Part shown: positions 13,286 through 34,355 of the stretch, one piece after another | Layout: each line of letters begins with the position of its first letter | Position numbering within the stretch: the stretch's first letter is position 1 | Assembly: GCA_044226865.1 (NCBI GenBank) | Contig: JBGAGE010000012.1 | Span: forward strand, 63,523 to 127,522 | Direction of reading: 5' to 3' | DNA from: Steroidobacteraceae bacterium | Lineage (GTDB): Bacteria > Pseudomonadota > Gammaproteobacteria > Steroidobacterales > Steroidobacteraceae | Length of the DNA stretch: 64,000 nucleotides | Notes under the pieces: model-generated | What the model saw: only the letters and a program-made list of their open reading frames with translations | Database searches by the model: none | What the model was told of the DNA's origin: nothing | Program-made: the position numbers and the translations under genes

Positions 13286-13300
13286 TGGTGGCCAGGGAGG
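13286..13300. repeat. distal att-type direct repeat of the tRNA-Phe 3' end
   Basis: tggtggccagggagg is identical to 32807-32821, which is the last 15 nt of the tRNA-Phe including CCA, on the minus strand. GC content drops immediately to its right. Confidence 0.7.
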
Positions 13301-13559
13301 CCCTCACACTAAATCGATTGAGAGCCATTTTGCCGAGGAAAATGTCCATTTTTTGATCGAAAAACGACCCCCAGAGTTACCCCAGTCACACAAAACATGG
13401 TGCTGTGTCCGGGGTGCGGTTCCCGTTACGCAGTCGACGCCTTGGTCGAACCTCTCCGAACCCAAGACTGGACGCTTGTATAACACCAAAGATTTGGATG
13501 ACGACGAGCGCAGGACACGCCGCCTCTGGATCTTTTCCTCTCAAGATCAACCCATTCGA

Positions 13560-14459
13560 CTAATCGACTTGGCTCGTCGCACGCGACAATTGATTCGAAA
13601 GCCGTTGGGCGGCTCCGGGCTGAAATTGCCTTATATATGAAATTCGACCTGTCAAGCTATTAATCAATTTGCCGCGCTTAACGGGATCTTCAATAGCCGC
13701 AAGTGTATGAATAGCTGCGCGAACATTGTCGCGGTACTGGCGCGGAACCGTAGGGCAGCCGCTGTTGACGTTGAGGCCGGTTATTCGTTGCGGCTTCGAT
13801 TTGGGTCGAATCTTTAGCTTCTCGCCGCGGTGAATTGACAACCCCCGCGACGACAGTCGCCGCGCGACATCCCCAATGAGCGCCACGGGATTGTCGCCTG
13901 AAAGTGCAATATCATCGACGAAACGCGTGAACCTCGTTTTCGTGTTCTCCGCTTGCAGTCGCGTTGGCAAATCGACCGCGCGTGCCAAAACCAGGTTTGC
14001 AATGACACCACTGGTCGGAGCGCCTTGTGGCAGCAGTCCATTGCGCGTTGTCAATTTTGTTAGCAGGCTCGCAACCGGCGTGCTATAGCCAAATTCTCGC
14101 AACGTGCAGAACACCGCTCGATGATCGACGCTATCATAGAAACTCTTGACATCGACCGTTACCAGCACACGTGCTCCGAGGTGCTTCTCGGCGTTGGTTC
14201 TGGGTGACCGACCAGAAACACCACCCTGGACTTCGGGGCCGAATGCATCCTCTCCAAGAATGCGCTTCTTTATTAAACGCTGAATAATTTTGAGTTCTTT
14301 GTTCGGATTTCGAAATATTCGAACTTGAGTTTTACTTGCATCCTTCCATTTTGTGAACTCGTGGTAGTTGGCGGCGGGCGCATCGGCAATCTTGCGGAGG
14401 CGGTCTAGCGGCACTCCAATAGTCCAAGCAAGATCCCGTAAAGAGGTGATAACTTTCAT
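13560..14459 (-). CDS. retron-type reverse transcriptase
   Basis: 299 aa. Collinear retron RT motifs: RIFRNPNKELKIIQ, NAEKHLGARVLVTVDVKSFYDS, LLPQGAPTSGVIANL, FTRFVDDIALSG (the YxDD box as FVDD), QRITGLNVN (equivalent to the retron VTG motif) and YRDNVRAAIH. By eye it aligns along its full length to the Ec86 RT as I remember it. Confidence 0.9.
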   Translation of the reverse strand: MKVITSLRDLAWTIGVPLDRLRKIADAPAANYHEFTKWKDASKTQVRIFRNPNKELKIIQRLIKKRILGEDAFGPEVQGGVSGRSPRTNAEKHLGARVLVTVDVKSFYDSVDHRAVFCTLREFGYSTPVASLLTKLTTRNGLLPQGAPTSGVIANLVLARAVDLPTRLQAENTKTRFTRFVDDIALSGDNPVALIGDVARRLSSRGLSIHRGEKLKIRPKSKPQRITGLNVNSGCPTVPRQYRDNVRAAIHTLAAIEDPVKRGKLINSLTGRISYIRQFQPGAAQRLSNQLSRATSQVD

Positions 14460-14782
14460 CCCGCTTTTCTCACACCTGAAGCAGACGTACCGGACAGATC
14501 AGGTACCAGCAATTTCAATAGCACCTGCGCTGCTTCAGCGATCTCGCGATTAGACTTGCCACCTATCTCATCGCGATTTGCTGCCAGCAGATCCACAAGC
14601 TCCACAGGTATTTTGGTTGCTTTGGCCAGGGATTCGACGACAGTTCGCGTAGCATTACGCTTGCCCGACTCGATCAACGAAAGCTGGCTCACCGAAATAG
14701 ACATACGCGCGGTCAATTCGGACTGCTTAAGTCCGAATGCCGCGCGAATGATCCTAAACGCCCTTGCGTAATCCGATTTCAT
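14456..14782 (-). CDS. XRE/Cro-C1 family helix-turn-helix protein (retron accessory candidate)
   Basis: 108 aa. GLKQSELTARMSISVSQLSLIESGKRNAT is a canonical HTH_3 motif. Its stop overlaps the RT start codon (ATGA, 14456-14459). Confidence 0.85.
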   Translation of the reverse strand: MKSDYARAFRIIRAAFGLKQSELTARMSISVSQLSLIESGKRNATRTVVESLAKATKIPVELVDLLAANRDEIGGKSNREIAEAAQVLLKLLVPDLSGTSASGVRKAG

Positions 14783-14817
14783 TGGAATTCAAGCCGCTCT
14801 AACACTAGTTTGCGTAA

Positions 14818-15018
14818 TCACATACGGTTCTGAAGAACCCGGCAAATCACCTGGACCAATCGAAACAGCTTTCGCCGCTGGATTTTTCCAGACCGCGCCA
14901 TCGCTCTCAGTTCCTGCTTTGCTGTACGCAATCGATCACTGTCGTCAGGCTCAAGTCTCGGGTCGTTGAGCACATTGGTTATCAGCCGCAGCGCCCGTTT
15001 CGCATCTTCATTTCTCAC
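14818..15018 (-). CDS. small hypothetical protein (66 aa, predicted helical, Arg/Lys-rich)
   Basis: GTG start preceded by GGAGAGAG with 5-nt spacing. Sits 35 nt upstream of the HTH gene on the same strand. No family recognised. Confidence 0.4.
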   Translation of the reverse strand: MRNEDAKRALRLITNVLNDPRLEPDDSDRLRTAKQELRAMARSGKIQRRKLFRLVQVICRVLQNRM

Positions 15019-15062
15019 AGTCTCTCTCCGGTAAGGGGACGTATTGCCCCGTGCGCGTAGAG

Positions 15063-15572: not shown

Positions 15573-16280
15573 GTGAAGGCAATTCAGGTTGTATCTTGGA
15601 TGCTTGCAGTCACGATTTCTCTAAGTCAGGCGCAGGCTTCGCCATCATCGCATTCAGCCTTGCCGCCAGATACGGTGAGCGATCTGCGATCCGTTCTGAA
15701 GACTCTGTGGCCCGCGCTCCATTATGGCGAGACAGTGGGACGCATCTATTTTCAAACCGCCTGCCAGCCCAGCGACGACCTCCGCCGGTCGTTTCCTAAG
15801 CTGGATGTCCATCGGCCGAGCAAAGGAAAGGCGGGTGTCGAAGCAATTCGAGAAATGTTTAGAACGGAGCGCAATGCCGCTGTTACGGAGCCGCAACCCG
15901 GCGTAGTTAGCATAAAGATTGGAGCGGTTCCTGACGCCATTCTGAAAACTCGGATTCCCCACCTCAGCCTTAATCCCGAGGAACAGTACAATATTTGGCT
16001 CGCAATCGAGGCCATTCAAGACTCACCCGAAGTGCGATCCATGATGCGTCGACTTGCAATAGGCATTCCGGCAACCCCAATGAACATCCAAATTAGGGAG
16101 CCAATTGCAGGACAACCGCATCTTCCTGAGTCGATCGACAACGCTACGTTTGATCAGGCTCTCAACATTGTCGCGAGAGCTTTTAGGGGCGTTGTCATCT
16201 ATCGCTTTTGCACCGCGCCGGCTCAATTCGAAATTGACTTCGCCGACGCTCGCGGTATTTACGCAGATACACTGCAGTGA
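15573..16280 (+). CDS. secreted hypothetical protein
   Basis: 235 aa. GTG start 6 nt after CAGGAG. Signal peptide MKAIQVVSWMLAVTISLSQAQA. Low GC. No family recognised. Confidence 0.55.
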   Translation: MKAIQVVSWMLAVTISLSQAQASPSSHSALPPDTVSDLRSVLKTLWPALHYGETVGRIYFQTACQPSDDLRRSFPKLDVHRPSKGKAGVEAIREMFRTERNAAVTEPQPGVVSIKIGAVPDAILKTRIPHLSLNPEEQYNIWLAIEAIQDSPEVRSMMRRLAIGIPATPMNIQIREPIAGQPHLPESIDNATFDQALNIVARAFRGVVIYRFCTAPAQFEIDFADARGIYADTLQ

Positions 16281-16384
16281 GTTGGCAGTTCTGATGCTTG
16301 ATAGCGGACGCCATTATTTGGCGGCTGCGGGTCAGCTTTTTCCTTTCGCGGTCGCTGGCAGAACTCGACGTGTTAAATTTGCCC

Positions 16385-16441
16385 GAATGACGGCTCCCGG
16401 GGCGAGAATCGGGCTCTGACCGGCCACTTTGAGACATTCGG
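16385..16441 (+). repeat. 57-nt intergenic repeat, copy A
   Basis: Ungapped alignment to 19188-19243 gives about 74% identity, with collinear identical blocks gaatgac, agaatcgg and ccggccacttt. Confidence 0.5.
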
Positions 16442-16570
16442 CAAGGGGAAAGGGCCGCCCGAAAGCAGACATGCCAGTCTTGCGCTACGATTCTGGGAAG
16501 CGAAGCGAGAGGATAATTCGATGGCAGCAGCTATGCCCTACTTCCGTCGGCTAATAAATTGCTAGAGCGC

Positions 16571-17083
16571 ATGACTAAGCGAGTTATTGCCGTCGTGAGT
16601 ATTGCGTGCGCTGTGATCGTGCCAATCAGCCTATTCGTTCTATTTGCGCTGCTTGGTCAGCGCCTGAATGCGACGCTTCGATTTCATGAATTGCTATTGG
16701 TAACCGGCATCGAATTTCTTATCTTCAATATTCCCGCTCTCATCTTAGGTTTGCCCGCCGTTCTTTTACTCAGAAAGTTCGCGTGCCTTCGCTGGTGGTC
16801 GCTATGTGCGGTAGTCTTTGCCTCAGGAGCCATATGCGCGGGGTCCAGCATATATTTCTCTCTTTTTGACTCCAGCAATGCCGCGGCACATTTCTGGGAC
16901 AGCGCAACGGTGGTATCGCAATATGGCGTCCCGACTCGTGATGGCTGGCTATTTCTGATCCGCCGAAGCAGTTTCATAGGGGCTGTCGGCGCGCTTACTG
17001 CCATGTGTGGCTGGACTGCGTGGACGGTTCTACTGCGCTTTAGCAGTCGGTTGGAGCAACGTGTCTCGAATCCGGGAAGATGA
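16571..17083 (+). CDS. hypothetical integral membrane protein (about 4 TM segments)
   Basis: Hydrophobic segments VIAVVSIACAVIVPISLFVLFALL, LLVTGIEFLIFNIPALILGLPAVLLL, WWSLCAVVFASGAICAG and FIGAVGALTAMCGWTAW. ATG at 16571 chosen over TTG at 16559. Confidence 0.5.
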   Translation: MTKRVIAVVSIACAVIVPISLFVLFALLGQRLNATLRFHELLLVTGIEFLIFNIPALILGLPAVLLLRKFACLRWWSLCAVVFASGAICAGSSIYFSLFDSSNAAAHFWDSATVVSQYGVPTRDGWLFLIRRSSFIGAVGALTAMCGWTAWTVLLRFSSRLEQRVSNPGR

Positions 17084-17248
17084 TTGCCGTAAAGCCGTCG
17101 CTGACGAACGGCAGCAACGGGTCAACACCGAATATCACCCGCGAAATCGCCTAGCTACGGCGAATACCGCCCCGACTCCCAAAGCTTCTGCTGTGGCGTA
17201 TAGAAATCCACGCTGCAATGCCGTTCGGCGGTTCGCTGCAACTGCTTG

Positions 17249-17713
17249 TTAGACGGCGCCCGCGACACGCTGTAAATGCTCCCTCACAGACGGCAACAGA
17301 AACAGCAGCGCTGGTTTGCGGTTACCACTACGCAAGATACCCTCGTACGTTAATAGGTCGTTTGTCAAAGGGCTGACGAAAACTCGAAAGAGCTCATCTA
17401 GCTTCGCCGCGCGAGTCGCGTCGTTGAGTGGGCTGTCGAGATCGAGGACCGCAGAAAACTCCGGCGGCTCCCGCCGAAAGACGTGCCCCAAATCCGTAGC
17501 GGGCAGGTCATCCACTGAATACGTGCGATTGTTCATACCTTGTATCCAGGCCTTGACGTTCAGGTAGTACTGCCTACCCCCGTAACCTGATCGCTGTAGC
17601 TCGAGGCCGACGATCGTCTCCGCGCCAACCCGAAACCACATCGCCTTCAGTCGAGCAAAGCCACAGCCCTGTGCGAGAGCATCAACCGTTTTGCGAAACG
17701 CTACTGTGTCCAT
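17249..17713 (-). CDS. DUF4304-like protein
   Basis: MDTVAFRKTVDALAQGCGFARLKAMWFRVGAETIVGLELQRSGYGGRQYYLNVKAWIQG matches the DUF4304 pattern as I remember it. Start set to an internal ATG of the 206-aa ORF. Confidence 0.5.
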   Translation of the reverse strand: MDTVAFRKTVDALAQGCGFARLKAMWFRVGAETIVGLELQRSGYGGRQYYLNVKAWIQGMNNRTYSVDDLPATDLGHVFRREPPEFSAVLDLDSPLNDATRAAKLDELFRVFVSPLTNDLLTYEGILRSGNRKPALLFLLPSVREHLQRVAGAV

Positions 17714-18064
17714 CGGCTTGCGGTAAGTGCCAATTGGTCCCGACTTACGCCCTATTGGACGCCCAGGGTGACGTGAAGAAATACGCAGAAAATGTCGAAT
17801 AATGTTACTATGAACGGGTCCTCCGTAAGCAAGCAGGCGCAGTACAGCACCAGCCACGCTTTTGGTCAAATCGTCTGCCCGAAAGCTGTCGTTCCCGTAG
17901 GTCTGCTGTGGGTCAAATTCGGCCGGCAGCGGTTCCAGACCACCCCAGCGGGAGCTAATACGTCAGAGACGCTCCGGCACATTGTTAGAATACCGTCCTT
18001 AAAGCGGTCGCCGGGAAAATGGACGCCGCGGTGAATTACGAAGGAGTTGGCCAGGAGGCAAGCC

Positions 18065-19051
18065 TTGCCGAGACCCAGCCCTAGGAAGCTTATTGCGCTG
18101 TTGGTGATCGTCTCTCTCGCGATCGGAATCACTGTTGCGAACTATTTTCGTCAGCCAAAAGCAACGATCGTACCGCTTACCGTGCGATCCAACTCTGCGA
18201 GGTCAGCGGACTCAGCGTCGAACCCAGTAAATCTATCGACTAATGGGAAGGATTTGAATGACTCGGGCAAGTCCTTCCGGGCCGCCTTTCGCCAAGCCAG
18301 TGATTACCACGAGTTTGTTGGTGGAATAAGGCATTCGGCCGATGCCGGCGACCCAGTCGCAGAATTTTTAGTCGCAAAGGCATTGAGATATTGCGCGGAC
18401 AACTTGCGGATGTTTTTGGCTATAGACGGCACTCGAAGAACCTTAGATGAGGTTCAAGTCCGAATGGCGCAAATTCCTGGCGCCTTTGAGCGGTCGAATG
18501 AAGTATACCGTCACTGTCATACGTACCTCGAAAACCCTGCGTTGGCGCCCCTCACTGCCGACTGGAAGCGATGGCTCGACTCGGCCGCCACCGCCGGGTA
18601 CCCGCCAGCTATTACGGAAAAGGCGGATGTCATGCGCGTGGCGGACTTGATGAAGGATGCGGCCGGTGCCGACGCGGGTGATGTAATTCCGCCTACCGAA
18701 GGGCCGGCACGGGAGTTGGCGCTAGCAGCTGTGAAATCAGGCGACCCGGACTCCATCCTTGGAATGGTCAATTGGGTTGACGGCACGAAGCGAAACGGCG
18801 AAGCCAATTTCGATTTGGAAAGCGCCTGGGAACTGCTGGCATGCCGACGCGGCTATGACGATTGTGGCGCTAATTCCGAACTCGTTCGAAGCGTCTGCAT
18901 GTTCGACGCACAGTGTCAAAACGATGCGGGAGTCATAGAGTCTTTGCGGCGGCGGTTGGGCAATCGATTTGACGATGTCGACCGACTGGCCACCGAGATT
19001 GGCGTGGCTGTTGATTCGGGAAGTTCAAAGGCAATTGAGGCCTTCCTTTAG
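18065..19051 (+). CDS. membrane-anchored hypothetical protein
   Basis: TTG at 18065 sits 6 nt after AGGAGG. N-terminal anchor KLIALLVIVSLAIGITVANYF. The remainder is a helical soluble domain with no recognised family. The ORF track starts it at 18047. Confidence 0.55.
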   Translation: MPRPSPRKLIALLVIVSLAIGITVANYFRQPKATIVPLTVRSNSARSADSASNPVNLSTNGKDLNDSGKSFRAAFRQASDYHEFVGGIRHSADAGDPVAEFLVAKALRYCADNLRMFLAIDGTRRTLDEVQVRMAQIPGAFERSNEVYRHCHTYLENPALAPLTADWKRWLDSAATAGYPPAITEKADVMRVADLMKDAAGADAGDVIPPTEGPARELALAAVKSGDPDSILGMVNWVDGTKRNGEANFDLESAWELLACRRGYDDCGANSELVRSVCMFDAQCQNDAGVIESLRRRLGNRFDDVDRLATEIGVAVDSGSSKAIEAFL

Positions 19052-19331: not shown

Positions 19332-20447
19332 ATGGACGACGTTGGCTTGTTACGAGCTATAGGGCTCATGAGCGGTACATCGATGGACGGCATCGATGCG
19401 GCGATCATTGAGACAGACGGAGATCTAAACCTTAGAACCGGCGCGTACTCAAACACTCCATATCCGCGCGATCTTCGCCGCGCCCTCCTACGCTTGACGG
19501 CGGAAGTCGTCGAAACCTCGGCATTCGAACGGGAAGTAACAGATTTGCATTGCCAAGCGGTTCTTACGCTGTGTGGAAATGCCGGAGTCGACTTGTCTGA
19601 CATCGACGTGATCGGCTTCCATGGGCAGACGATTGCGCACCAACCGGAATATGCACGAACTCGGCAGCTCGGGGATGGTCAGCGTATGGCGGACGCTCTC
19701 GGAACGCTGGTTGTGAATCGGTTTCGGCAGAATGACTTGGAACACGGTGGCCAGGGCGCCCCGATGATTCCGGCATTTCACCGAGCACTGGTCCTATCGT
19801 CCAAGTTGCCCCAGCCGGTTGGAATATTGAATATCGGAGGTGTGTCGAATGTAACGCTGGTCGATCAAGAGTTGCTCTACGCGTGCGATTGCGGGCCCGG
19901 AAATGCTTTAATCGATGATTGGGTGGATGCGCGCTGCGGCATCCCATACGACGATGGCGGAGAGCTTGCGGCTAAAGGCCGTATCGATCAAACAGCTCTG
20001 ACTTCACTGCTTGATGCCGAATATTTCCGGCGTCAGGGGCCAAAGTCATTGGATCGCAATGCGTTCTCAACAAAGGTCGTAGAGGCGTTATCCCCACAGG
20101 ATGGAGCTGCCACGCTTGCCGCATTCACGGCCGCCGCAATCGCCGCCGAGTCACGCAAATTGCCCGTTTCGCCCAATGAATGGATCGTGGTTGGCGGGGG
20201 AAGGCTTAATCGTTACCTACTCGCCCAACTCAGAACTCGGCTCGGTGCACCTGTACGGGTTGCTGAAGAACTCGGATGGGCGGGAAGCGCTGTAGAAGCT
20301 CAGGGCTTCGGATACTTGGCCGTTCGCTCGCTCAAAAATCTCCCGTTGAGCTGGCCCAGTACAACAGGAGTTCACGCGCCAGTGACCGGGGGCGTAGTTT
20401 GGGGGCCGGCGAAAGAAACGAGACCATTGGCGCGTTCGCTGATTTGA
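19332..20447 (+). CDS. anmK: anhydro-N-acetylmuramic acid kinase
   Basis: 371 aa. N-terminal GLMSGTSMDGIDAA motif and overall AnmK-like layout. Confidence 0.9.
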   Translation: MDDVGLLRAIGLMSGTSMDGIDAAIIETDGDLNLRTGAYSNTPYPRDLRRALLRLTAEVVETSAFEREVTDLHCQAVLTLCGNAGVDLSDIDVIGFHGQTIAHQPEYARTRQLGDGQRMADALGTLVVNRFRQNDLEHGGQGAPMIPAFHRALVLSSKLPQPVGILNIGGVSNVTLVDQELLYACDCGPGNALIDDWVDARCGIPYDDGGELAAKGRIDQTALTSLLDAEYFRRQGPKSLDRNAFSTKVVEALSPQDGAATLAAFTAAAIAAESRKLPVSPNEWIVVGGGRLNRYLLAQLRTRLGAPVRVAEELGWAGSAVEAQGFGYLAVRSLKNLPLSWPSTTGVHAPVTGGVVWGPAKETRPLARSLI

Positions 20448-20560
20448 ATGGAGTTGACCCGCTTTCGTGGACGGTTAGTTATCTAAGCTCTCACTGCGGG
20501 AATAGGACTCCGCGGTTAACGTGCTCGTTTCCTGTGCCATACTGAGGCAATAGCTTCGGG

Positions 20561-26000: not shown

Positions 26001-26297
26001 TTCCAGAACTACTCACTTCCAGAGTTCGTGCCGGAGGTCATCAAGCGCTGTCGTCCAAGCGACATCTTGTTCCCACTGCTAGACTTCCTGGTGCGGTCTG
26101 CGGACAACATCTCGGCGATGGAATTCAAGCGCTACGACAATGCCAATTACCGTCGCGTTCGTGACGCCTCGGCGTCGGGGAAGGCGGATGCGCCGCTGCA
26201 GGACGTCGTGCTCGGGATTCTCCGATTCATGCGCAAGCACGGGCTAGTTGCGGAAGCGAAGCACGCCGATAAGGCCGGAAGGGCCAGTTATGTTTGA
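23040..26297 (+). CDS. acyl-AMP ligase - carrier protein - thioester reductase fusion (carboxylic acid reductase-like / NRPS-like)
   Basis: 1085 aa. Adenylation cores YTSGSTSEPKGV and PKTSSGKI, the carrier-domain serine in GFDSLKLVEF, and a reductase with LLTGGTGFFGPF plus YSQSKWVAE (YxxxK). Its start overlaps the BVMO stop by 4 nt. Confidence 0.9.
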   Translation: MRRSILAPFCEWVDRNPDQLLHAFLDVDGRVTEAYTYAQFLQRTADIAVHIRHASPMAQGERVLLVYPPGVEMICAFLACVRLGLIPVPVYPPTSHGFQAALAKTEFIARDCQASAVLTDRAYYWSMKLNETRNRLATLSFKRACVSKLPWIVSTEASKGASFDVDIGHSDILFLQYTSGSTSEPKGVMVTHENILANCDAVVDHRPVGVSWLPQYHDMGLIGYYLFFQLKGGTTYGFSPLDFIQRPALWLETITKYRGSASSAPNFAYEYCLRPDKLSAETLAKLDLSSLRFLMTAAEPVRAHVFRDFLRKFEPYGLDPKAFFSAYGLAEFTLAVSNYGRTIKSFDRSELGRRKVRPLNGNAATARATALVSCGRPLGATEVKIVDITHTPRVARDGEVGEIWMRGPSKCRGYWKRAELSNSVFEARLPGEPEDAPTWLRSGDIGFVHCDELYICGRAKDMFIVRGMNYYPQDIEALVESDARVRRGCVAAFALEQDDQETLVVVAELKDGRRVPDVRELNRRLQQGLGVTAASFVFIKARTIPKTSSGKIVRYQVRDRWLAGALDVLAHLATYDADQENSDDSLAWLRRFGITGDETWTLRDAGFDSLKLVEFAHELKQRLEDRGHVDLSKEVDLRVLQKIAICELFGLLEQLETATPHARLKFKRALSELGREHRAREAELMRQDTRLSIDVAGLPQPSMALGSGGSILLTGGTGFFGPFLLTSLLGQCDDDIHVLVRANPGDAMRRIREGLMSAAADGASCPEGWEHRVRPVCGDLASPSLGLSPSDWRALADNVHTIYHNGAVVNYLMDYHALRGANVGGTNEVIRMALSHRSKVLNHISSTFVFGWSVQKTIRERDTNAAMERLDFGYSQSKWVAEHVVRDAMLRGLQARIFRPALLTPSVSGGGYNFDIAIRLLAFMIEHGIVTTAQNQVSFTPADLAAANIVAISRAADSVGATYHVTRDEYASLSDITAIIGAMTGREFQNYSLPEFVPEVIKRCRPSDILFPLLDFLVRSADNISAMEFKRYDNANYRRVRDASASGKADAPLQDVVLGILRFMRKHGLVAEAKHADKAGRASYV

Positions 26298-27654
26298 CGG
26301 AAGAATCAGCAACGCGCCGCACGTGCATCGGGCACGTGCCGTTCTAGACGCGCGCGGCATGCTTCGTAACTGCATCAAGGTGTTCGAGAGGTACCGGGCG
26401 CGTCTCGGATCGACGTTCACCGTACACTTTGGCGGGATTGTCCCGGCGCTGGTTACAGCCGACCCTGTCGTTATCAAACATGTTCTGCGCAGCAACCAGC
26501 GAAACTATGAGAAGTCGTTCATCCAGGCCGAGCGCATGGTTGAGTTTCAGGGGGCGGGCGTGGTCAATATCCACGGTGAGGCGTGGAAACGACAACGTAA
26601 ACTGCTGGCCCAGGGTTTCAAGCCCAACTATCTCGCCAAGCTACTGCCGATGCACCAGGATGTGTTCGAGGAATTGATGCACAACTTCGACGGCGAAGCG
26701 CGGCGGGGTCCTGTGAACATACGGCAACAGATGGTGCAGTTCACGCTTCGGTTAACGGGAAAGGCACTCTATGGCCGCAGCATGCCGACAGCAGAGCTGG
26801 AGCGAATCGGTGCGATCATTCACGAAATCCAGAATTTCGTCCACCGGCAGATTGTCCAGCCGTGGATGATTCCGTGGTACCGAATCAATGGTCAGTCGGC
26901 GAAATACCAACAGCTGCGCAAGGAGGGGGACGCGATCGCATTGCGACACATCCGGGCTCGGCTCCGCGAGGGCCTCAGCGAGAACGATTTCCTCCGAATC
27001 CTGATAGAGACGCCGTATTACGATACGGGTCTCCCGATGGACGAGTCGATGGTGATGCTCGAGAGCCTCCAATTGCTGGTCGCCGGCAACGTGACGTCGA
27101 CGAACGCCTTGGCCTGGATATTCTATTTGCTGGCTCGGCACCCGAAGTACATCCTCGAGATCCGTGACGAGGTGGCGTCGGTCATCGGTGCGAACGCGAT
27201 GGACTATCGCAACCTGCACCAGCTCGAGGGGACCGTTCGAGTGATCGACGAAGCCCTTCGGCTTTATCCACCGTTCTGGATGATCGACCGCATCGCGCTC
27301 AATGACGACGAAGTGAACGGTATCCACATTCCTGCACGCGCGATGGTGTTGCCTTACATATATGGAACTCATCGCAATCCGGCGCATTGGCAGAATGTTG
27401 AGGCGTTCGATCCGGGCCGGTTCGAATCCCGCGGGCCTAGAGAACGCCATCCGTTCGCCTACATCCCATTTGGCGGTGGGCCGCGGACCTGTTTGGGTAC
27501 CAACATGGCGGTCATGCAGATGCTCATGATCGTTGCGGCGTTCGTACGCAAATACGATTTCGCTCTGGTGACGAACGAGCCGATCGATATTGACCCGTCG
27601 ATGATGCTGCGACCCAAGGGCGTCGTCAGCATGAAGTTCCGCGCGGTGGCCTGA
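26290..27654 (+). CDS. cytochrome P450
   Basis: Heme-binding loop FGGGPRTCLG, I-helix AGNVTST and ExxR (EALR). Start set to ATG at 26290, overlapping the upstream stop by 8 nt. Confidence 0.9.
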   Translation: MFDGRISNAPHVHRARAVLDARGMLRNCIKVFERYRARLGSTFTVHFGGIVPALVTADPVVIKHVLRSNQRNYEKSFIQAERMVEFQGAGVVNIHGEAWKRQRKLLAQGFKPNYLAKLLPMHQDVFEELMHNFDGEARRGPVNIRQQMVQFTLRLTGKALYGRSMPTAELERIGAIIHEIQNFVHRQIVQPWMIPWYRINGQSAKYQQLRKEGDAIALRHIRARLREGLSENDFLRILIETPYYDTGLPMDESMVMLESLQLLVAGNVTSTNALAWIFYLLARHPKYILEIRDEVASVIGANAMDYRNLHQLEGTVRVIDEALRLYPPFWMIDRIALNDDEVNGIHIPARAMVLPYIYGTHRNPAHWQNVEAFDPGRFESRGPRERHPFAYIPFGGGPRTCLGTNMAVMQMLMIVAAFVRKYDFALVTNEPIDIDPSMMLRPKGVVSMKFRAVA

Positions 27655-27844
27655 CGGTGGCTCGAGTCGGAGCGGGCTTCGACCGCCGGCTCTGGGCGTC
27701 GACGGACGTCCGAGGCGCGGACACTTTTCGCTCTTTGCCTTGGCGCGATTTTGCTTGCCCGCCACGGCAGGCCATTTCTTACCGCAACCGCAATGCTTTC
27801 AGCCGAGTCGGTGTCCGGCGCGCGGCCACAGACTGTAAAGCAGG

Positions 27845-28141: not shown

Positions 28142-28345
28142 TCGTCGTTCGAGTTGCCTTCGCTCCGGTATTGCAATTAGGTGCCGGTTGTTTCACCGGG
28201 AAGTCTCCGCGGTTTGCAAGGCAGAGTTTGTAGTGTAACTCGACCCATTCTCAGTATTCAGTTGGTGGCTTTCGTCCTTTACGGTTGAGCGGCGTCTGAG
28301 AGATGCAGGCTCGATTGGCAGCTTTCGGCTGTGGAGGAGGACACG

Positions 28346-28633
28346 ATGGCAGACATTCTGCTTTCGATTGATGAGGCTCGGATCCGGCTGGGTGGGATTT
28401 CTCGCAACAGTTTTTATTTCTTGATGCGCTCTGCGGTTTTGGCGAGCGTGACCATCGGGTGTCTGCGGTTTGTTTCTGGCAGTGCTATCGATGCATTGAT
28501 TCGAAACTCGAGCACGACAGCCATTGCTTCCGTTGACCAGGTGCGCTGTCATCGGCTTCTGCAGGTGGGCTTGGTGGGCATTGGGGTAGGGGCGGCGGCA
28601 CGTCGTGGGCATCATAATTCGGGTGGCGCATGA
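28346..28633 (+). CDS. excisionase-family/MerR-like HTH protein
   Basis: ATG sits 5 nt after GGAGGAGG. LLSIDEARIRLGGISRNSFYFLMRSAVLASVTIG resembles the excisionase-type DNA-binding domain. Confidence 0.45.
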   Translation: MADILLSIDEARIRLGGISRNSFYFLMRSAVLASVTIGCLRFVSGSAIDALIRNSSTTAIASVDQVRCHRLLQVGLVGIGVGAAARRGHHNSGGA

Positions 28634-28732: not shown

Positions 28733-29317
28733 ATGTCCGCATCATGCAGCACACACATTACAGTACCGGCGGACGATGACCTCTATTCGCCTCGCGAATC
28801 GATCACAGTGCGGCTCTCCGGGCATGAGAAAGACCGATTCCAACTCCTGGCCGAGGCTCGAGGGATGTCCGACGCGCGGTTGGGGTTGATCGCTTTCCGT
28901 CGCTTGTTGGACGAAGTGCCTCCGGCCTTTCCCTCCACCGATTGGGAGGACGAAACAGCGTCAGAGCGCATCACCATTCGCCTGCGCCCAGGGGACCGGC
29001 GGCGGGTTCGCGAGCGCGCTCTGGCGCGCCGGATGCGCGATGCGGGGTATCTGGCAGCCCTGGTCCGGGCCCACGTCGTGGCGAATCCGCCACTACCCAA
29101 ATCTGAGATCGACGAGCTGAAGCAGGCCATTGGTGCCCTGGTCCGATCGATTGCCGATCTGTCGACCTGCGCCCGAGAGCTCTCTCGTCATCGCGAGCAC
29201 ACCGCCACGGTCTGGGATGAGGTCCGCAAGACCCGCGAACGGGTCATCGCGCTAGAACGGCAATTCCACGCCTACACCAAGGCGGCGGTGATCGCCTGGG
29301 AGGCCTCCAGTGTCTAA
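28733..29317 (+). CDS. MobC-like relaxosome accessory protein (two ribbon-helix-helix-like segments)
   Basis: ITVRLSGHEKDRFQLLAEARGMS and ITIRLRPGDRRRVRERALARRMRDAGYLAALVR. Its stop overlaps the relaxase start. Confidence 0.55.
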   Translation: MSASCSTHITVPADDDLYSPRESITVRLSGHEKDRFQLLAEARGMSDARLGLIAFRRLLDEVPPAFPSTDWEDETASERITIRLRPGDRRRVRERALARRMRDAGYLAALVRAHVVANPPLPKSEIDELKQAIGALVRSIADLSTCARELSRHREHTATVWDEVRKTRERVIALERQFHAYTKAAVIAWEASSV

Positions 29318-30353
29318 GCGAGTCGTCCGCCTGCCAGGTCGTTCCGGGTTTGCGATCGTGAGCCACGGCCGGCGTGGTGCCTTTGCGTATTCGTTCAGCC
29401 CAGCGCAGATCGCTCAGATTGCCCGCACCGTCCGCCGCGCGCCGGAGGTGATGGTCAAGGTCACGGGCGGGGGTGCGAAGGTCGGCGCGGTGGCTTCGCA
29501 TCTGCGCTACATCGGCCGGCAGGGCGAACTTGAGGTGGAGAACGATGAGGGACGCCATCTTAAAGACCGAACGGAGCTGAACGCGTTGCTCGATGACTGG
29601 CGCCTGGACCTGACCTCCGGCCAGTATCGGCCCAAGAACGCGCAGCGGGCTTCCCGCTCCTCTAAGCTCGTGCACAACATCGTCTTGTCGATGCCTTCGC
29701 GGACGCCGCCGGACAAGGTGCTCAATGCCGCCAAGAAGTTCGCCCAGGAGCGGTTCGCGTTGCAGCATCGATACGCTCTGGTGCTGCATTCCGATCAAGC
29801 CAATCCCCATGTGCACCTGGTCGTGAAGGCCGAAAGCGAGCAGGGCAAGCGCTTACATATCGACAAAGCGATGCTGCGCGACTGGCGGGAGCAGTTTGCC
29901 GAGCTGATGCGCGAGCAGGGGATCGCGGCCAATGCCACGCCGCGGGCGGTGCGGGGGAAGAATCCACGCAAAGGTCCCCGAGGGTTGTTCGCGGCACGCG
30001 AGCACGGGGAATCCACACTCGACCGTCGGCGGATCGAGGGTGTCGTGCGGGATCTACATGAAGACCCGCGGGCGCTGGCGGACCCCAAACTTCGTCGTTT
30101 GCGTGAAACCCGCAAGGCGTTGGTCGATGAATGGGCAGAGGTCGCCACCCGGCTCGAGAACCAAGGCGAACGCCACTTGGCGCGGGAGGTGCGCGAGTTC
30201 ATGGAGCACTTACCGACGGCGGCGACAGACCGGCAGAAGTTGGCGCTGCGCTTTCTGGAGTTTAAGAAGCAACAGAACGCAACACAACGCGACGGAATGC
30301 AACCAGAAGTCCCCCCGGCGAGGCAAGGGCATGACATCGAGTTGACGCGATGA
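29310..30353 (+). CDS. relaxase/mobilization nuclease (MobA/VirD2 family)
   Basis: HSDQANPHVHLVV histidine triad (HxDxxxxHxH), HLRYIGR candidate catalytic Tyr, and a GTG start 6 nt after GGGAGG. Confidence 0.75.
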   Translation: MSKRVVRLPGRSGFAIVSHGRRGAFAYSFSPAQIAQIARTVRRAPEVMVKVTGGGAKVGAVASHLRYIGRQGELEVENDEGRHLKDRTELNALLDDWRLDLTSGQYRPKNAQRASRSSKLVHNIVLSMPSRTPPDKVLNAAKKFAQERFALQHRYALVLHSDQANPHVHLVVKAESEQGKRLHIDKAMLRDWREQFAELMREQGIAANATPRAVRGKNPRKGPRGLFAAREHGESTLDRRRIEGVVRDLHEDPRALADPKLRRLRETRKALVDEWAEVATRLENQGERHLAREVREFMEHLPTAATDRQKLALRFLEFKKQQNATQRDGMQPEVPPARQGHDIELTR

Positions 30354-30490
30354 TCCCGACAAGAATAACCAGGGGCCGGATTTTGGCCGTCAACTCATAC
30401 CAATCTAGGGATGTCACCCAGCTTCGAGTTGCGTCAACCTAACGCATCGGAAATGTCCGAGGATTTCGCTTGTCACAAAGGAGTCGCGTC

Positions 30491-30736
30491 ATGAGCATAT
30501 CGAAAACGGCGTCAAGCACCGTACCGGCCCAGCATTCGCGAGTACTGCGGTTGCCGCAGGTCTGCGCACTCACCGGTCTGGGTCGCTCCATCATCTATCA
30601 GATGCAAGCGGAACGCCGATTTCCTCAGCGTGTCCGGCTCACTGATCGAGCAGTGGGGTGGATGGAAAACGAGGTTCTTGAATGGCTCGCGACGAGAGCG
30701 GCGGACAGGGCGAAGGGCGATAAGACGGCCGGGTGA
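30491..30736 (+). CDS. AlpA family transcriptional regulator
   Basis: RVLRLPQVCALTGLGRSIIYQMQAERRFPQRVRLTDRAVGWMENEVLEWL is a typical AlpA/phage-regulator HTH. ATG preceded by AAGGAG. Confidence 0.8.
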   Translation: MSISKTASSTVPAQHSRVLRLPQVCALTGLGRSIIYQMQAERRFPQRVRLTDRAVGWMENEVLEWLATRAADRAKGDKTAG

Positions 30737-30746
30737 TGGCGTGACG

Positions 30747-30908
30747 CTACGGCTGCTTCGCCACAAGCTTGCCGTTTTCGACAACGTAGATTGGGGTGCC
30801 GTACATCTTGGCGACTTTGCGTGCGTCCTTAGCCGCAAGCCGTAATGCGTGCCCGGCTCGATCCGCAAAGCTGACACCTTTTCGGGCGCGGCGTGATTTA
30901 GCTTTCAT
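30747..30908 (-). CDS. 53-aa hypothetical protein, possible partner of the zeta-like ATPase
   Basis: Below the ORF-track size cutoff, so I translated it myself: MKAKSRRARKGVSFADRAGHALRLAAKDARKVAKMYGTPIYVVENGKLVAKQP. Its ATG overlaps the zeta-like gene's stop (ATGA at 30905-30908). Confidence 0.4.
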   Translation of the reverse strand: MKAKSRRARKGVSFADRAGHALRLAAKDARKVAKMYGTPIYVVENGKLVAKQP

Positions 30909-31432
30909 CGACTCTTCTCCACCAGCTGTGGCGTTGAACCCGAATTATCGTACACCGCCCACTCGTCCGCCAATGTTCGGTAGACCTTCTGAAAGTTCGT
31001 CCACCCCCGCGTGAATCGCCGTTCCAGGTCGGCTCGGGGCACATCATGTCCACCCTGTTTGACGCGCGCTTTCACGCGCTGCCAGGCGACGCGAGAAGAA
31101 CTAAGTCGTAGATACAGGATCTCGACCCGGTATCCGGCTCGCTTCCATCTTGAGAGCCGCAGCGCATACGCCAGTCCGCTCAAGGTACTCTCGAAGGCGA
31201 AGCTCTCGCGCTCGTTCGCCAGGCGATCGATTTCCTTCAAGACGAGCCGGGCGGCCGCGATGGCGGCCAGCTCGGGTTTAATAGGAGAGAGACCCGCGGC
31301 GATCAGGTCAGCGTTCACGAAGTTCACGATGCCAGACGCTTCGGATAAGAAACGGCGTGCAAAAGTGGTTTTGCCAGCGCCATTCGGGCCGGCAATCACG
31401 ACGACCAGCGGATGCCGCGCCCGCTCGGCCAC
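30905..31432 (-). CDS. zeta-toxin-like P-loop kinase/ATPase
   Basis: Walker A in VVIAGPNGAGKTTF. The size (175 aa) and layout fit the zeta toxin/AAA_33-like family. Its start codon directly abuts the integrase stop. Confidence 0.75.
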   Translation of the reverse strand: MAERARHPLVVVIAGPNGAGKTTFARRFLSEASGIVNFVNADLIAAGLSPIKPELAAIAAARLVLKEIDRLANERESFAFESTLSGLAYALRLSRWKRAGYRVEILYLRLSSSRVAWQRVKARVKQGGHDVPRADLERRFTRGWTNFQKVYRTLADEWAVYDNSGSTPQLVEKSR

Positions 31433-32641
31433 TCAAGCCGCCCGCTTCGTCGAAGGCAGCGTGATCACCGTCGCACCGCTGCGCAACGAATCGAGCGTGT
31501 CTGCCCAGCTTTGCATCATCTTGCGGCGCTCCGGCAAGTGCTCGGCGTAGTTGTAAGCAGCTCGGACGGCATCGCGCTCGCCGTGCGCCAGCTGCCGCTC
31601 GATGGCATCACGATGCCAGCCTTGTTCGTTGAGCAGAGTGGAAGCGGTAGAGCGGAATCCATGCACCGTCACCGCGCCTTGCTCGAAGCCCATCCGTCGT
31701 AGCGCGGAGAGCAAGGCGTTGTCCGACAGCGGACGCAGATTGCTTCGAGGGCTCGGAAACACGAAGCGGCCTTCACCCGTGATGGGCTCGATCTCGCGCA
31801 GGACCGCGATCGCTTGGGTGGAGAGCGGCACGATGTGCTGCTGGCGCATCTTCATGCGGCCGGCAGCAATCCGCCATTCGCAGGCCTCGAAGTTGAATTC
31901 CGACCACTCTGCCGCGCGCAACTCGCCCGGCCGCACGAAGACCAGGGGCGCCAGGCGCAGCGCGCAGCGCACGACCGGTGACCCATCGTAGGAATCGATG
32001 GCACGAAGCAGCTCACCAATCTTGCGGGGATCGGTATAGGAGGCCAGGTGTTTCTCCGCGGCCGGTGGGATGGCCCCGCGCAAGTCCGCGGCTGGGTCGC
32101 GCTCGGCGCGCCCCGTGGCCACGGCGTATCGGAACACGCGGCTGCAGTTCTGCAAGGCGCGATGCGCCGTCTCCAGATGCCCATCGCCTTCCAAGCGGCG
32201 CAGGCACGCCAGGATCTCCTGCGCCGCAATCTTGGCAATCGGCTTGGCGCCGATGAACGGGAACAGGTACAGCTCCAGCCGGCGAATGATCTTCTCGGAA
32301 TGCCCGGGCGCCCAGTTGCGTGAGAACTTCTCGAACCACTCCCGTGAGATCGCCTCGAAGGTATTCGTGGCGGCCTCCTCCTCGGCGCGCCGCTTCGCCC
32401 CGGGATCGATCCCATCCGCCAACTGGCGCCGGGCGGCGTCCCGTCGCTCTCTGGCTTGCTTGAGGGACACATCCGGATAGGTGCCCAAGGACAGGAGCTT
32501 CTCCTTGCCGTCCACCCGGTATTTGAGCCGCCACCAGCGACCTCCGTTCGGCATCACCATCAGGAACAGGCCGCGCTGGTCGTACAGCTTGTAGGCCTTA
32601 TCGCGTGATTTAGTGGCTTTAATCGCAGTGTCGGAGAGCAT
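31433..32641 (-). CDS. P4/CP4-57-type tyrosine integrase
   Basis: N-terminal LSDTAIKATKSRDKAYKLYDQRGLFLMVMPNGGRWWRLKYR and C-terminal HGFRSTASTLL...AYNY catalytic residues. Start set to ATG at 32641. The ORF-track start at 32839 would run into the tRNA. Confidence 0.9.
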   Translation of the reverse strand: MLSDTAIKATKSRDKAYKLYDQRGLFLMVMPNGGRWWRLKYRVDGKEKLLSLGTYPDVSLKQARERRDAARRQLADGIDPGAKRRAEEEAATNTFEAISREWFEKFSRNWAPGHSEKIIRRLELYLFPFIGAKPIAKIAAQEILACLRRLEGDGHLETAHRALQNCSRVFRYAVATGRAERDPAADLRGAIPPAAEKHLASYTDPRKIGELLRAIDSYDGSPVVRCALRLAPLVFVRPGELRAAEWSEFNFEACEWRIAAGRMKMRQQHIVPLSTQAIAVLREIEPITGEGRFVFPSPRSNLRPLSDNALLSALRRMGFEQGAVTVHGFRSTASTLLNEQGWHRDAIERQLAHGERDAVRAAYNYAEHLPERRKMMQSWADTLDSLRSGATVITLPSTKRAA

Positions 32642-32806
32642 TTTGGGGGTCACTCCTTTTCGCCCGGTGCTGTTACCCCACATAGTTACCCCCAAGCCCT
32701 TGTGGCTGTCAACGGAAGCCAGCGGCGCGCCGAGGCTGAAGAATCCGGCGTTTTCGAGCAAAATCAGCGATTTGTGGAAGTGGGCGGAAGCCGGCGGAAG
32801 GGGTAT

Positions 32807-32882
<76 letters not shown>

Positions 32883-34352: not shown

Positions 34353-34355
34353 AAT

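What the first reader, a model, noticed from the sequence alone, without database searches (positions are those of the whole stretch)
13286..32821. A 15-nt duplication of the tRNA-Phe 3' end delimits a 19.5-kb island
tggtggccagggagg occurs at 32807-32821, where it is the last 15 nt of the tRNA-Phe including CCA (minus strand). It occurs again at 13286-13300, 64 nt from the polB start codon. An exact 15-mer recurrence is very unlikely by chance in 64 kb. The P4-type integrase lies next to the tRNA copy, and base composition visibly drops between the repeats. This gives precise attL/attR candidates. It also places the retron, anmK and the lipid-tailoring operon inside a single horizontally acquired block.
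Basis: seen in the sequence. Interest (0 to 1): 0.6.

Follow-up and report, generated by a model that had tools for sequence, protein, structure and literature searches.

The report
Mobilizable genomic island at tRNA-Phe
The 15-base repeat is real and marks the two ends of a 19.5-kb mobilizable genomic island inserted at the 3' end of the only tRNA-Phe gene of a Steroidobacteraceae bacterium; this is a well-supported but ordinary example of a well-known kind of mobile element.

Summary
Confirmed. TGGTGGCCAGGGAGG occurs exactly at 13286-13300 and at 32807-32821. The second copy is the last 15 nt, CCA included, of tRNA-Phe(GAA) on the minus strand.

The interval has the full backbone of an integrative mobilizable element (IME):
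- a P4-type integrase beside the tRNA
- an AlpA excisionase-like gene
- a zeta-like kinase
- a MobC-like gene plus a relaxase
- no conjugation machinery

The cargo is a type VI retron, four orphan genes, the genome's only anmK, and an SDR / Baeyer-Villiger monooxygenase / FAAL-reductase / P450 operon.

GC and tetranucleotide composition change sharply at 13.2 kb and return to genome values after 33 kb.

The strongest evidence is a homologous island in another species of the genus (G001). It has the same backbone at tRNA-Phe and duplicates its own variant of the same 15-nt block, with the same inner boundary. It also carries the same GTTACCCCAG motif about 75 nt inside the distal copy.

No empty site was found. 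Available relatives are too diverged and share no synteny, and the read-based excision test was unavailable.

The "single acquired block" reading is only partly right, because the island is a mosaic. The operon is 95-96% identical to one on a tRNA-Arg island in species G005. "Lipid-tailoring" is unproven.

This is a new member of a known kind, of low to moderate interest.

The parts
13286..13300 (+). Distal direct repeat (attR core). It is the displaced copy of tRNA-Phe positions 62-76.
   Evidence: Exact match. A homologous distal repeat with the same inner boundary exists in G001.
13301..13559 (.). Distal arm of the element, with GTTACCCCAG at 13376-13385 as a putative arm-type integrase site.
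   Evidence: GTTACCCC occurs 4 times in the window against 0.52 expected, and 3 of the 4 lie at the island's inner ends in one orientation. AGTTACCCC occurs only 6 times in the genome. The same 10-mer sits at the same offset in the G001 distal arm.
13560..14459 (-). Retron reverse transcriptase, type VI.
   Evidence: Pfam RVT_1 at 1.3e-18. PADLOC RT_VI at 3.9e-59.
14456..14782 (-). HTH partner of the type VI retron. Its end overlaps the RT start by 4 nt.
   Evidence: Pfam HTH_31 and HTH_3. PADLOC HTH_VI at 1.8e-16.
15573..19051 (.). Four low-GC orphan genes: 15573-16280 (+), 16559-17083 (+), 17249-17869 (-) and 18047-19051 (+).
   Evidence: No Pfam or PADLOC family apart from a weak DUF4304 hit. 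No paralogs in the genome. This stretch has the highest tetranucleotide deviation.
19332..20447 (+). anmK (anhydro-N-acetylmuramic acid kinase), the only complete copy in the genome.
   Evidence: Pfam AnmK at 2.3e-78. NCBIfam NF007141 scores 456 bits against a cutoff of 352. It is the sole full copy. It is absent from 5 of 6 genus relatives, and the best relative is 64% identical in another genus.
20449..27668 (+). Cargo operon: SDR (20561-21505), BVMO-like flavin monooxygenase (21448-23043), FAAL + thioester reductase (23040-26297) and cytochrome P450 (26248-27654).
   Evidence: Family assignments. Two stretches, window 20449-23059 and 23672-27668, are 95-96% identical in nucleotides to G005 contigs C100 and C112; 23060-23671 lies between those contigs and is uncovered. 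In G005 the operon lies 2 kb from a different P4-type integrase at tRNA-Ala/tRNA-Arg.
28331..28633 (+). Small HTH_17-like ORF, possibly an excisionase-type or regulator gene. This call is weak.
   Evidence: Pfam HTH_17 at E 0.052, below threshold. It is 71% identical to an ORF beside the paralogous relaxase on contig C3.
28733..29317 (+). Relaxase accessory (MobC-like) gene, assigned by position only.
   Evidence: No family hit. It is conserved directly upstream of the relaxase in paralogous elements, at 64% on C3 and also on C13 and C12.
29310..30353 (+). Relaxase of the MobA/VirD2 (MOBP-like) type.
   Evidence: Pfam Relaxase at 2.9e-14, above the gathering score. NCBIfam MobP1 at 3.6e-32, below its curated cutoff.
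30470..30736 (+). AlpA-family excisionase/regulator.
   Evidence: Pfam Phage_AlpA at 1.2e-18. G001 has a homolog, 73% identical over a 51-residue match, in the same position.
30905..31432 (-). Zeta-toxin-like P-loop kinase.
   Evidence: Pfam Zeta_toxin at 1.1e-14. It is 72% identical to the G001 gene beside that genome's integrase.
31433..32641 (-). P4/CP4-57-type tyrosine integrase, 402 aa.
   Evidence: Pfam Arm-DNA-bind_3, Phage_int_M and Phage_integrase. Start codon and catalytic motifs read. NCBIfam PRK09692 at 2e-78, below its curated cutoff of 434 bits.
32642..32806 (.). Integrase-proximal arm. It holds GTTACCCC at 32672 and 32685, and three GYGGAAG repeats spaced 10 nt apart at 32774, 32784 and 32794.
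   Evidence: These motif blocks are conserved in the G001 and G005 proximal arms.
32807..32821 (+). Proximal direct repeat (attL core), inside the tRNA gene.
32807..32882 (-). tRNA-Phe(GAA), intact and the only tRNA-Phe gene in the genome.
   Evidence: ARAGORN. Rfam tRNA at 75 bits.
10859..13222 (-). polB (DNA polymerase II), the chromosomal flank outside the island. The likely start is the ATG at 13201.
   Evidence: NCBIfam Pol II equivalog at 760 bits against a cutoff of 570. GC is 0.63-0.67. It is 81% identical in protein to G001 polB. Start codon.

Best explanation
Window 13286-32821 is an integrative mobilizable element (IME) of about 19.5 kb. Its P4-type tyrosine integrase inserted it into the extreme 3' end of the tRNA-Phe gene, the asymmetric 3'-end sublocation at tRNA positions 62-76.

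How it works (inferred from the family):
- Recombination between a 15-nt core in the element's attP and the identical tRNA segment rebuilt an intact tRNA (attL, 32807-32821).
- It left the displaced tRNA end as the distal repeat (attR, 13286-13300), 64-85 nt upstream of polB.
- Excision would need the integrase plus AlpA, acting on the two cores and on arm-type sites. The GTTACCCC(A) motifs in both arms and the GYGGAAG triplet in the proximal arm are candidates for those sites.
- Transfer would use the element's own relaxase and a conjugation pore borrowed from another element.
- The zeta-like kinase may stabilise the element.

The cargo is a type VI retron (probably phage defence), orphan genes, anmK, and an oxidative fatty-acyl-type operon.

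What is shown: the repeat, the gene families, the composition boundaries, the homologous att architecture in G001, and the cargo exchange with G005.

What is inferred: the crossover position, the role of the motifs, present-day mobility, and the cargo functions.
For: - The repeat is exact and anchored at the tRNA 3' end. Chance expectation is about 1e-4 to 4e-3.
- The integrase lies about 165 nt from the tRNA on the same strand. Most of the 80 integrase relatives with an identifiable neighbouring tRNA show this layout, as do 4 paralogs in this genome.
- AlpA, a relaxase and a zeta-like gene are present, and no conjugation genes were seen.
- GC and tetranucleotide composition step at 13.2 kb and about 33 kb.
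- GTTACCCC is enriched and confined to the two inner ends in one orientation.
- G001, a different species of the genus, has the same order tRNA-Phe, int (73-80% aa), zeta (72%), alpA (73% over a 51-residue match). It has a second exact copy of its own core variant, TGGTGGCCAGAGAGG, on contig C183, with the same inner boundary. GTTACCCCAG sits 75-76 nt inside in both species.
- The G001 variant is the 3' half of a compensated acceptor-stem pair (G7-C66 changed to A7-U66). The core therefore tracks each host's tRNA.
- The two flanks of the G001 island map about 1.5 kb apart (one unrelated ORF between) on G000 contig C1, at 96.2 and 97.7 kb. That island is therefore an insertion relative to G000.
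- Cargo is absent from relatives, or in the operon's case 95-96% identical on another island in G005.
Against: - No unoccupied site was found. None of 160 polB relatives has tRNA-Phe within 10 kb, and the exact predicted attB junction is absent from the metagenome collection. These relatives are at most 81% identical in polB and share no synteny, so the test has no power.
- The core is short. Paralogous and related integrases give 21-27-nt blocks that start in the T loop.
- No oriT was identified.
- Composition differs between three internal modules, so the content was not necessarily acquired at once.
- G005, which carries a related integrase at tRNA-Phe, shows no second exact core copy.
- The G001 distal repeat and the G001 tRNA/integrase lie on different contigs of a metagenome-assembled genome with 6% estimated contamination, so their physical linkage is inferred, not shown.
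Confidence: 0.87

Rival explanations
1. The IME backbone is an old resident of the tRNA-Phe locus in this genus, inherited mostly vertically, and only its cargo turns over by recombination with other islands. On this view the interval is one mobile unit in structure but not a single recent horizontal acquisition.
For: - Homologous int-zeta-alpA backbones sit at tRNA-Phe in three species of the genus, G000, G001 and G005.
- G000 and G001 backbone divergence is 71% nt and 73-80% aa. That is similar to chromosomal genes such as polB, at 74% nt and 81% aa.
- There are three compositional modules.
- The operon is 95-96% identical to one on a tRNA-Arg island in G005, while the integrases of the two islands are only about 65% identical.
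Against: - tRNA-Phe and the island lie in non-syntenic chromosomal contexts in G000, G001, G004 and G005.
- The core repeat matches each host's own tRNA variant. This implies integration or homogenisation after the tRNAs diverged.
- The G001 and G005 backbones are 95% identical although their flanks are unrelated, which suggests recent transfer.
Confidence: 0.35
2. The element is a fixed remnant. The boundaries are correct, but it no longer excises or transfers.
For: No excision data could be obtained. No oriT was recognised. The genome's only anmK lies inside the element and the only tRNA-Phe forms its attL boundary, which would favour retention.
Against: - Both core copies are perfect.
- The integrase, AlpA and relaxase reading frames are full length, with family-typical domains. 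The integrase shows R, HxxR and Y motifs.
- Arm motifs are retained at both ends.
Confidence: 0.3
3. The 15-mer at 13286 is a chance match. The true distal end lies elsewhere, for example at about 20.4 kb where the operon homology with G005 begins. The low-GC stretch from 13.3 to 20.4 kb would then be an unrelated insertion.
For: - One chance copy of the same 15-mer exists in a coding sequence on C12.
- Another chance hit of the core-plus-motif pattern lies in a Desulfobacteraceae coding sequence.
- Composition changes again near 20 kb.
- Related integrases use longer cores.
Against: - Expected frequency is about 1e-4 per 40 kb.
- The copy lies in an intergenic position exactly at the GC step.
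- The G001 island duplicates the same block in its own variant and shares the GTTACCCCAG motif at the same offset.
- No other tRNA-derived fragment is present in the window.
Confidence: 0.04

Closest known systems
tRNA-gene genomic islands with P4/CP4-57-type integrases. [quoted passage not shown]
   Same: - The integrase gene sits directly downstream of an intact tRNA gene.
- The 3' end of the tRNA is duplicated as a short direct repeat at the far end.
- An AlpA-type or other recombination directionality factor is present.
- The integrase binds core and arm-type sites in attL and attR (PMC11963761 for IntS and RdfS).
- From my own knowledge, the Mesorhizobium island duplicates 17 nt of the phe-tRNA 3' end (Sullivan and Ronson 1998). 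That paper was cited in PMC7643969 but was not readable here.
   Different: This element is 19.5 kb and has no conjugation genes, so it is an IME rather than a 500-kb ICE. Its host family and cargo differ, and the core is 15 nt. Homology of the integrase to IntS or IntA specifically was not tested.
Integrative mobilizable elements (IMEs), as reviewed in PMC5704250.
   Same: It has an integration/excision module (int and alpA) and a mobilisation module limited to a relaxase with an accessory gene. It has no type IV secretion system or coupling protein. It carries adaptive cargo.
   Different: No oriT was identified and transfer was not shown. The relaxase scores below NCBIfam's MobP1 cutoff.
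Sublocation scheme for tRNA integration sites: anticodon loop, T loop, or asymmetric 3' end. This is Williams 2002 as summarised in bioRxiv 10.1101/2020.11.02.365908.
   Same: The identity block spans tRNA positions 62-76 and excludes the T loop, which fits the asymmetric 3'-end class.
   Different: Integrases 49-57% identical to this one give 21-27-nt blocks that start at T-loop position 53. These include a paralog at tRNA-Cys in this genome and relatives at tRNA-Arg. Other genera of the family show arrays of about 45-nt anticodon-loop blocks at tRNA-Phe.
Type VI retrons (RT plus HTH protein).
   Same: PADLOC RT_VI and HTH_VI are both the best hits. The two genes are adjacent, with a 4-nt overlap.
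   Different: The msr-msd ncRNA was not verified here, and Rfam gives no hit.
Pipolins, which are tRNA-flanked defence islands with a primer-independent PolB (PMC11551731).
   Same: A family B polymerase gene lies next to a tRNA-derived direct repeat and a defence gene.
   Different: The polB here is a chromosomal DNA polymerase II equivalog and lies outside the repeats. This is not a pipolin.

Membership tests
tRNA-integrated genomic island (Islander-type definition, PMC4383910) | Intact target tRNA gene, with a displaced 3' fragment of it as a direct repeat at the other end | tested here: met
   Intact tRNA-Phe at 32807-32882. An exact 15-nt copy of positions 62-76 lies at 13286-13300 in direct orientation.
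tRNA-integrated genomic island (Islander-type definition, PMC4383910) | Tyrosine integrase gene inside the island, next to the tRNA | tested here: met
   The integrase at 31433-32641 starts 165 nt from the tRNA 3' end.
tRNA-integrated genomic island (Islander-type definition, PMC4383910) | Unoccupied site in related genomes | tested here: inconclusive
   No polB relative has tRNA-Phe nearby, and the exact attB pattern is absent from the metagenome collection. Relatives lack synteny on both sides. Indirect support: the homologous G001 island is an insertion relative to G000 contig C1.
tRNA-integrated genomic island (Islander-type definition, PMC4383910) | Excision to a circle, giving attP plus a restored attB | not testable with these tools
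Integrative mobilizable element | Integration/excision module plus a relaxase, without a conjugative pore or coupling protein | tested here: met
   int, alpA and a relaxase are present. No ORF in 13.3-32.8 kb hit a T4SS or T4CP family in Pfam, NCBIfam or PADLOC scans.
Integrative mobilizable element | oriT recognised by its relaxase | tested here: inconclusive
   No inverted repeat was found in 27650-28760. No oriT model was available.
P4/CP4-57-type tyrosine integrase | Arm-DNA-binding (DUF4102-type) N-terminal domain, central domain and catalytic domain, with R..HxxR..Y residues | tested here: met
   PF13356, PF22022 and PF00589 all score above gathering thresholds. RPGELR, HGFRST and AAYNY motifs are visible in the translation. 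NCBIfam PRK09692 matches at 2e-78 but scores 264 bits, below its curated cutoff of 434.
Type VI retron | RT of the type VI clade with an adjacent HTH protein | tested here: met
   RT_VI at 3.9e-59 and HTH_VI at 1.8e-16, both the best PADLOC hits.
Type VI retron | msr-msd non-coding RNA | not tested
Rfam gave no hit in the island.
Pipolin | Primer-independent PolB encoded inside the element | tested here: not met
   polB is a DNA polymerase II equivalog (760 bits against a cutoff of 570) and lies outside the repeats.

The most novel reading that the evidence does not exclude
This IME family is still cycling in the genus. Its attP core follows each host's tRNA-Phe acceptor-stem variant: G7-C66 in G000, and the compensated A7-U66 in G001. 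It uses a minimal 15-18-nt 3'-terminal core with a conserved GTTACCCCAG arm site, unlike its T-loop-using paralogs. It acts as a platform that swaps whole cargo modules (a type VI retron, the genome's only anmK, a BVMO/FAAL-reductase/P450 operon) with islands of other tRNA specificities. The tRNA-Phe locus with its island also sits in a different chromosomal context in each species, so it may be a rearrangement hotspot.
Probability: 0.35. Interest if true: 0.4.

Novelty: new member of a known kind. Interest (0 to 1): 0.3.

Why it matters
The result gives base-precise ends for a mobile element in a poorly studied soil lineage, the Steroidobacteraceae. It shows that a type VI retron, the only anmK gene and an oxidative fatty-acyl-type operon of this genome are accessory and potentially transferable. 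It documents exchange of a 7-kb operon between islands with different tRNA targets in two species. It also adds a case of 3'-end core usage among integrases whose relatives use the T loop. None of this changes what is known about how such islands work. Its value is in annotation, and as a ready substrate (perfect att sites, intact int and alpA) for excision and mobilisation assays.

Tried and rejected
- **Empty site through polB relatives.** I fetched 80 genome loci and 80 metagenome loci with 10-kb flanks. None has tRNA-Phe near polB, and none shares any neighbour with the window, so the test has no power.
- **Exact predicted attB junction** in the metagenome collection: no hit.
- **attL junction** in the species-representative genomes: no hit.
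- **Exact-protein look-up of polB:** not on record.
- **Synteny of both flanks** with six genus genomes: only fragmentary.
- **Longer or degenerate tRNA fragments** in the window: none beyond the 15-mer. An 11-mer inside anmK and a 2-mismatch copy on the opposite strand at 53811 are chance-level.
- **Third genomic copy of the 15-mer** on C12: it lies inside a coding sequence and was rejected as chance.
- **Core-plus-motif scan** of 185,579 species genomes: only G001 and one chance hit in a Desulfobacteraceae coding sequence.
- **G005 distal end:** not found, either by a 1-mismatch core search or by the G001 distal-arm sequence.
- **Pipolin idea:** rejected, because polB is Pol II and lies outside the repeats.
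- **oriT search by inverted repeats:** nothing found.
- **Terminator-like call over the GTTACCCC motif:** it relies on G-T pairs and was not accepted.

Full report
**Observation**

The 15-mer TGGTGGCCAGGGAGG occurs exactly twice in the window, at 13286-13300 and 32807-32821, both on the + strand. The only other near match has two mismatches and lies on the opposite strand. ARAGORN and Rfam place an intact tRNA-Phe(GAA) at 32807-32882 on the minus strand. The 15-mer is therefore tRNA positions 62-76: four bases of the T stem, the 3' strand of the acceptor stem, the discriminator base and CCA.

The window is G000:C9:63523-127522 of a 5.57-Mb, 14-contig genome of a Steroidobacteraceae bacterium. 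This is the genome's only tRNA-Phe gene.

A third copy of the 15-mer exists on contig C12. It lies inside the C-terminal codons of a coding sequence (...DALVAREGFKV) and is best read as chance. Markov models of orders 0-5 expect 1.1-1.6e-4 copies per 40 kb of one strand. The single chance copy gives an empirical ceiling of about 4e-3. An unanchored exact 14-mer also recurs in the region. The weight of the observation therefore comes from the anchoring at the tRNA end, not from repeat length alone.

**Anatomy**

Reading from the tRNA inward, on the minus strand unless noted:
- A 165-nt arm.
- A 402-aa integrase with Arm-DNA-bind_3, Phage_int_M and Phage_integrase domains (31433-32641).
- A zeta-toxin-like kinase (30905-31432).
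- An AlpA-family gene on the + strand (30470-30736, 1.2e-18). The 121-aa ORF that overlaps it on the other strand is probably spurious.
- A MobA/VirD2-type relaxase (29310-30353, +), preceded by a conserved accessory ORF (28733-29317) and a weak HTH_17-like ORF.

No ORF matched any conjugative pore or coupling protein. The cargo follows:
- A P450, a FAAL/thioester-reductase fusion, a BVMO-like monooxygenase and an SDR (20561-27654, +).
- AnmK (19332-20447).
- Four orphan genes.
- A type VI retron, with PADLOC RT_VI at 3.9e-59 and HTH_VI at 1.8e-16.

Outside the distal repeat lies polB. It is a DNA polymerase II equivalog, not a pipolin polymerase. Its likely ATG start is at 13201.

**Composition**

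GC is 0.592 inside the repeats, against 0.646 for the genome. In 200-nt windows it falls from 0.67 to 0.54 at 13200. The tetranucleotide distance to the genome profile rises from 0.26 to 0.44 at 13 kb, stays elevated, and returns to about 0.19-0.21 after 33-34 kb.

The interior is not uniform. GC is 0.552 for 13.3-20.4 kb, 0.609 for the operon and 0.622 for the backbone.

**Independent support for the ends**

1. The octamer GTTACCCC occurs four times in the window, against 0.52 expected. Three of the four are in one orientation at the inner ends of the interval. One is 76 nt inside the distal repeat (13376), and two lie between the integrase start and the tRNA (32672, 32685). The 9-mer AGTTACCCC occurs only six times in the genome, and two of those are these sites. 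Three GYGGAAG repeats at 10-nt spacing abut the tRNA.
2. Species G001 of the same genus carries tRNA-Phe followed by an integrase (73-80% aa), a zeta-like gene (72%), alpA (73% over a 51-residue match) and a MobC-like gene in the same order.
3. The G001 tRNA has a compensated acceptor pair, A7-U66 instead of G7-C66, so its 15-mer reads TGGTGGCCAGAGAGG. Exactly this variant occurs a second time in G001, on contig C183.
4. That G001 copy has the same inner boundary (position 62). Its identity extends 3 nt further outward. GTTACCCCAG follows at offset 75-76, and further shared blocks (AAACATG, GTCSGGGGT) align with the G000 distal arm. The proximal arms of G000, G001 and G005 share blocks too.
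5. A scan of 185,579 species genomes for the core plus the motif found only this G001 site and one chance hit in a coding sequence.
6. The two flanks of the G001 island map to G000 contig C1 at 94.2-96.2 kb and 97.7-102 kb. The G001 element is therefore an insertion relative to G000.

One caveat applies to points 3-6: the G001 distal repeat (contig C183) and the G001 tRNA/integrase (contig C144) lie on different contigs of a metagenome-assembled genome with 6% estimated contamination, so their linkage is inferred.

Taken together, these points make a chance origin of the 13286 copy very unlikely. They define a small IME family with a 15-18-nt core at the 3' end of the tRNA.

**Horizontal origin of the content**

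A DNA search of 30 relatives with the whole interval found only the int/zeta backbone in G001 and G005 (71-75% nt), weaker 65-74% matches to integrase and relaxase paralogs in this and several other genomes, anmK at 67% in one other genus (G015), a more distant copy of the operon in one other family of the order (G026, 66-69%), and the operon in G005.

In G005 the operon is 95-96% identical over window 20449-23059 and 23672-27668. It lies 2 kb from a different P4-type integrase (about 65% nt, 58% aa) next to tRNA-Ala and tRNA-Arg(CCT). Chromosomal genes of the two species are far more diverged, so this is recent exchange of a cargo module between islands with different targets.

anmK is the only full copy in G000. 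It is absent from five of six genus genomes, and its best relative is 64% identical in another genus. The retron and the orphan genes have no homolog in the relatives searched.

**What could not be shown**

No empty site was found. Among 160 polB-bearing loci from genomes and metagenomes (at most 72% aa; G001's polB, at 81%, came from the whole-genome search), none has tRNA-Phe within 10 kb. None shares any other gene with the window.

In G001, polB lies in a block that is collinear with G000 contig C13. The 5' flanks of tRNA-Phe in G001, G004 and G005 map to three different places in G000.

The exact attB junction is absent from the metagenome collection, and the attL junction is absent from the species genomes.

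**Mechanism**

The layout matches tRNA-targeting P4/CP4-57-type integrases, which bind core and arm-type sites in attL and attR and are helped by a directionality factor (PMC11963761 for IntS and RdfS).

Neither G000 nor G001 shows identity in the T loop of the distal copy. The strand-exchange region must therefore lie within positions 62-76, the asymmetric 3'-end sublocation of Williams' scheme (as summarised in bioRxiv 10.1101/2020.11.02.365908).

Relatives at 49-57% identity behave differently. A paralog at tRNA-Cys in this genome has a 24-nt repeat 10.2 kb away. Relatives at tRNA-Arg have 21-27-nt blocks that start at T-loop position 53. Other genera of the family show arrays of about 45-nt anticodon-loop blocks at tRNA-Phe, which must belong to another integrase class.

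Both core copies carry the host's own tRNA variant in each species. This suggests that integration, or homogenisation by cycles of excision and integration, happened after the tRNAs diverged (inference).

**Comparison and verdict**

This is an integrative mobilizable element of a familiar type (PMC5704250, PMC4383910). The closest well-known parallel for the target is the Mesorhizobium symbiosis island in a phe-tRNA gene. From my own knowledge that island duplicates 17 nt; the paper could not be read here.

The att assignment and boundaries are well supported. The "single acquired block" reading holds for structure but not for history, and "lipid-tailoring" is unproven.

Confidence in the IME/att reading is 0.87. 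Whether the element still moves is open. Novelty: a new member of a known kind. Interest: 0.3.

Noticed in passing
G000 contig C12:404040-404054 (outside the window): A third exact copy of the 15-mer lies inside the C-terminal codons of a coding sequence (...DALVAREGFKV). I read it as a chance occurrence. It is useful as an empirical background rate.
   Followed up: yes
window 33639-35514: A KfrA_N-domain gene (33639-34352, -) and an XerC/D-like tyrosine recombinase (34453-35514, +) lie just upstream of the tRNA-Phe 5' end. The other side of the tRNA may therefore also be mobile-element derived. Homologs at about 70-73% nt exist in G001, G002 and G005.
   Followed up: partly
window 10859-13222 and 32807-32882; G000 C1:96.2-97.7 kb; C13:214.3-215.2 kb; C14:506.5 kb: Both polB and the single tRNA-Phe sit in chromosomal contexts different from those in sister species. 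G001 polB lies in a block collinear with G000 C13. The G001, G004 and G005 tRNA-Phe flanks map to G000 C1 or C14. The locus looks like a rearrangement hotspot.
   Followed up: partly
window 20449-27668; L190 (G005:C100), L191 (G005:C112): The four-gene SDR / BVMO / FAAL-reductase / P450 operon is 95-96% identical in nucleotides to an operon on a tRNA-Ala/tRNA-Arg(CCT) island of another species. Identity starts 2 nt after the anmK stop and ends 14 nt after the P450 stop. A more distant copy (66-69%) is clustered in G026, which belongs to another family of the order.
   Followed up: partly
window 19332-20447; G000 C12:541517-541702: The island's anmK is the only full copy in the genome. An 80-codon fragment, 68% identical to AnmK residues 299-360, lies on C12 and may be a remnant of another copy.
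   Followed up: partly
window 16322-16478 and 19142-19229: Short intergenic repeat elements. The stretch 16322-16478 matches G000 C3:241031-242009 at 78-86%. The stretch 19142-19229 matches G005:C143 at 83%. This may be a small dispersed repeat shared within the genus.
   Followed up: no
G000 contigs C5, C6, C12, C13, C3, C4, C10: The genome has five P4-type integrases, each next to a tRNA (Phe, Thr, Arg, Cys, Ser). It also has several relaxase paralogs; the copy on C3 is 73% identical in protein. The tRNA-Cys island has a 24-nt repeat that starts in the T loop, 10.2 kb away.
   Followed up: partly
L282 (G213:C7) and L283 (G057:C2): Two other genera of the family carry four tandem copies of an approximately 45-nt tRNA-Phe 3' segment (anticodon loop to CCA) within 5-8 kb. 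These are arrays of att remnants from a different integrase class.
   Followed up: partly
window 30512-30877 (-): This 121-aa ORF overlaps the AlpA gene on the opposite strand and has no family hit. It is probably not a gene, so the zeta-like kinase has no obvious antitoxin partner.
   Followed up: partly
L102 (G001:C144) 5432-6739 and L280 (G001:C183) 5038-6210: In G001 the island is bracketed by a HipA toxin gene on the tRNA side and a Fic/DOC gene just outside the distal repeat.
   Followed up: no
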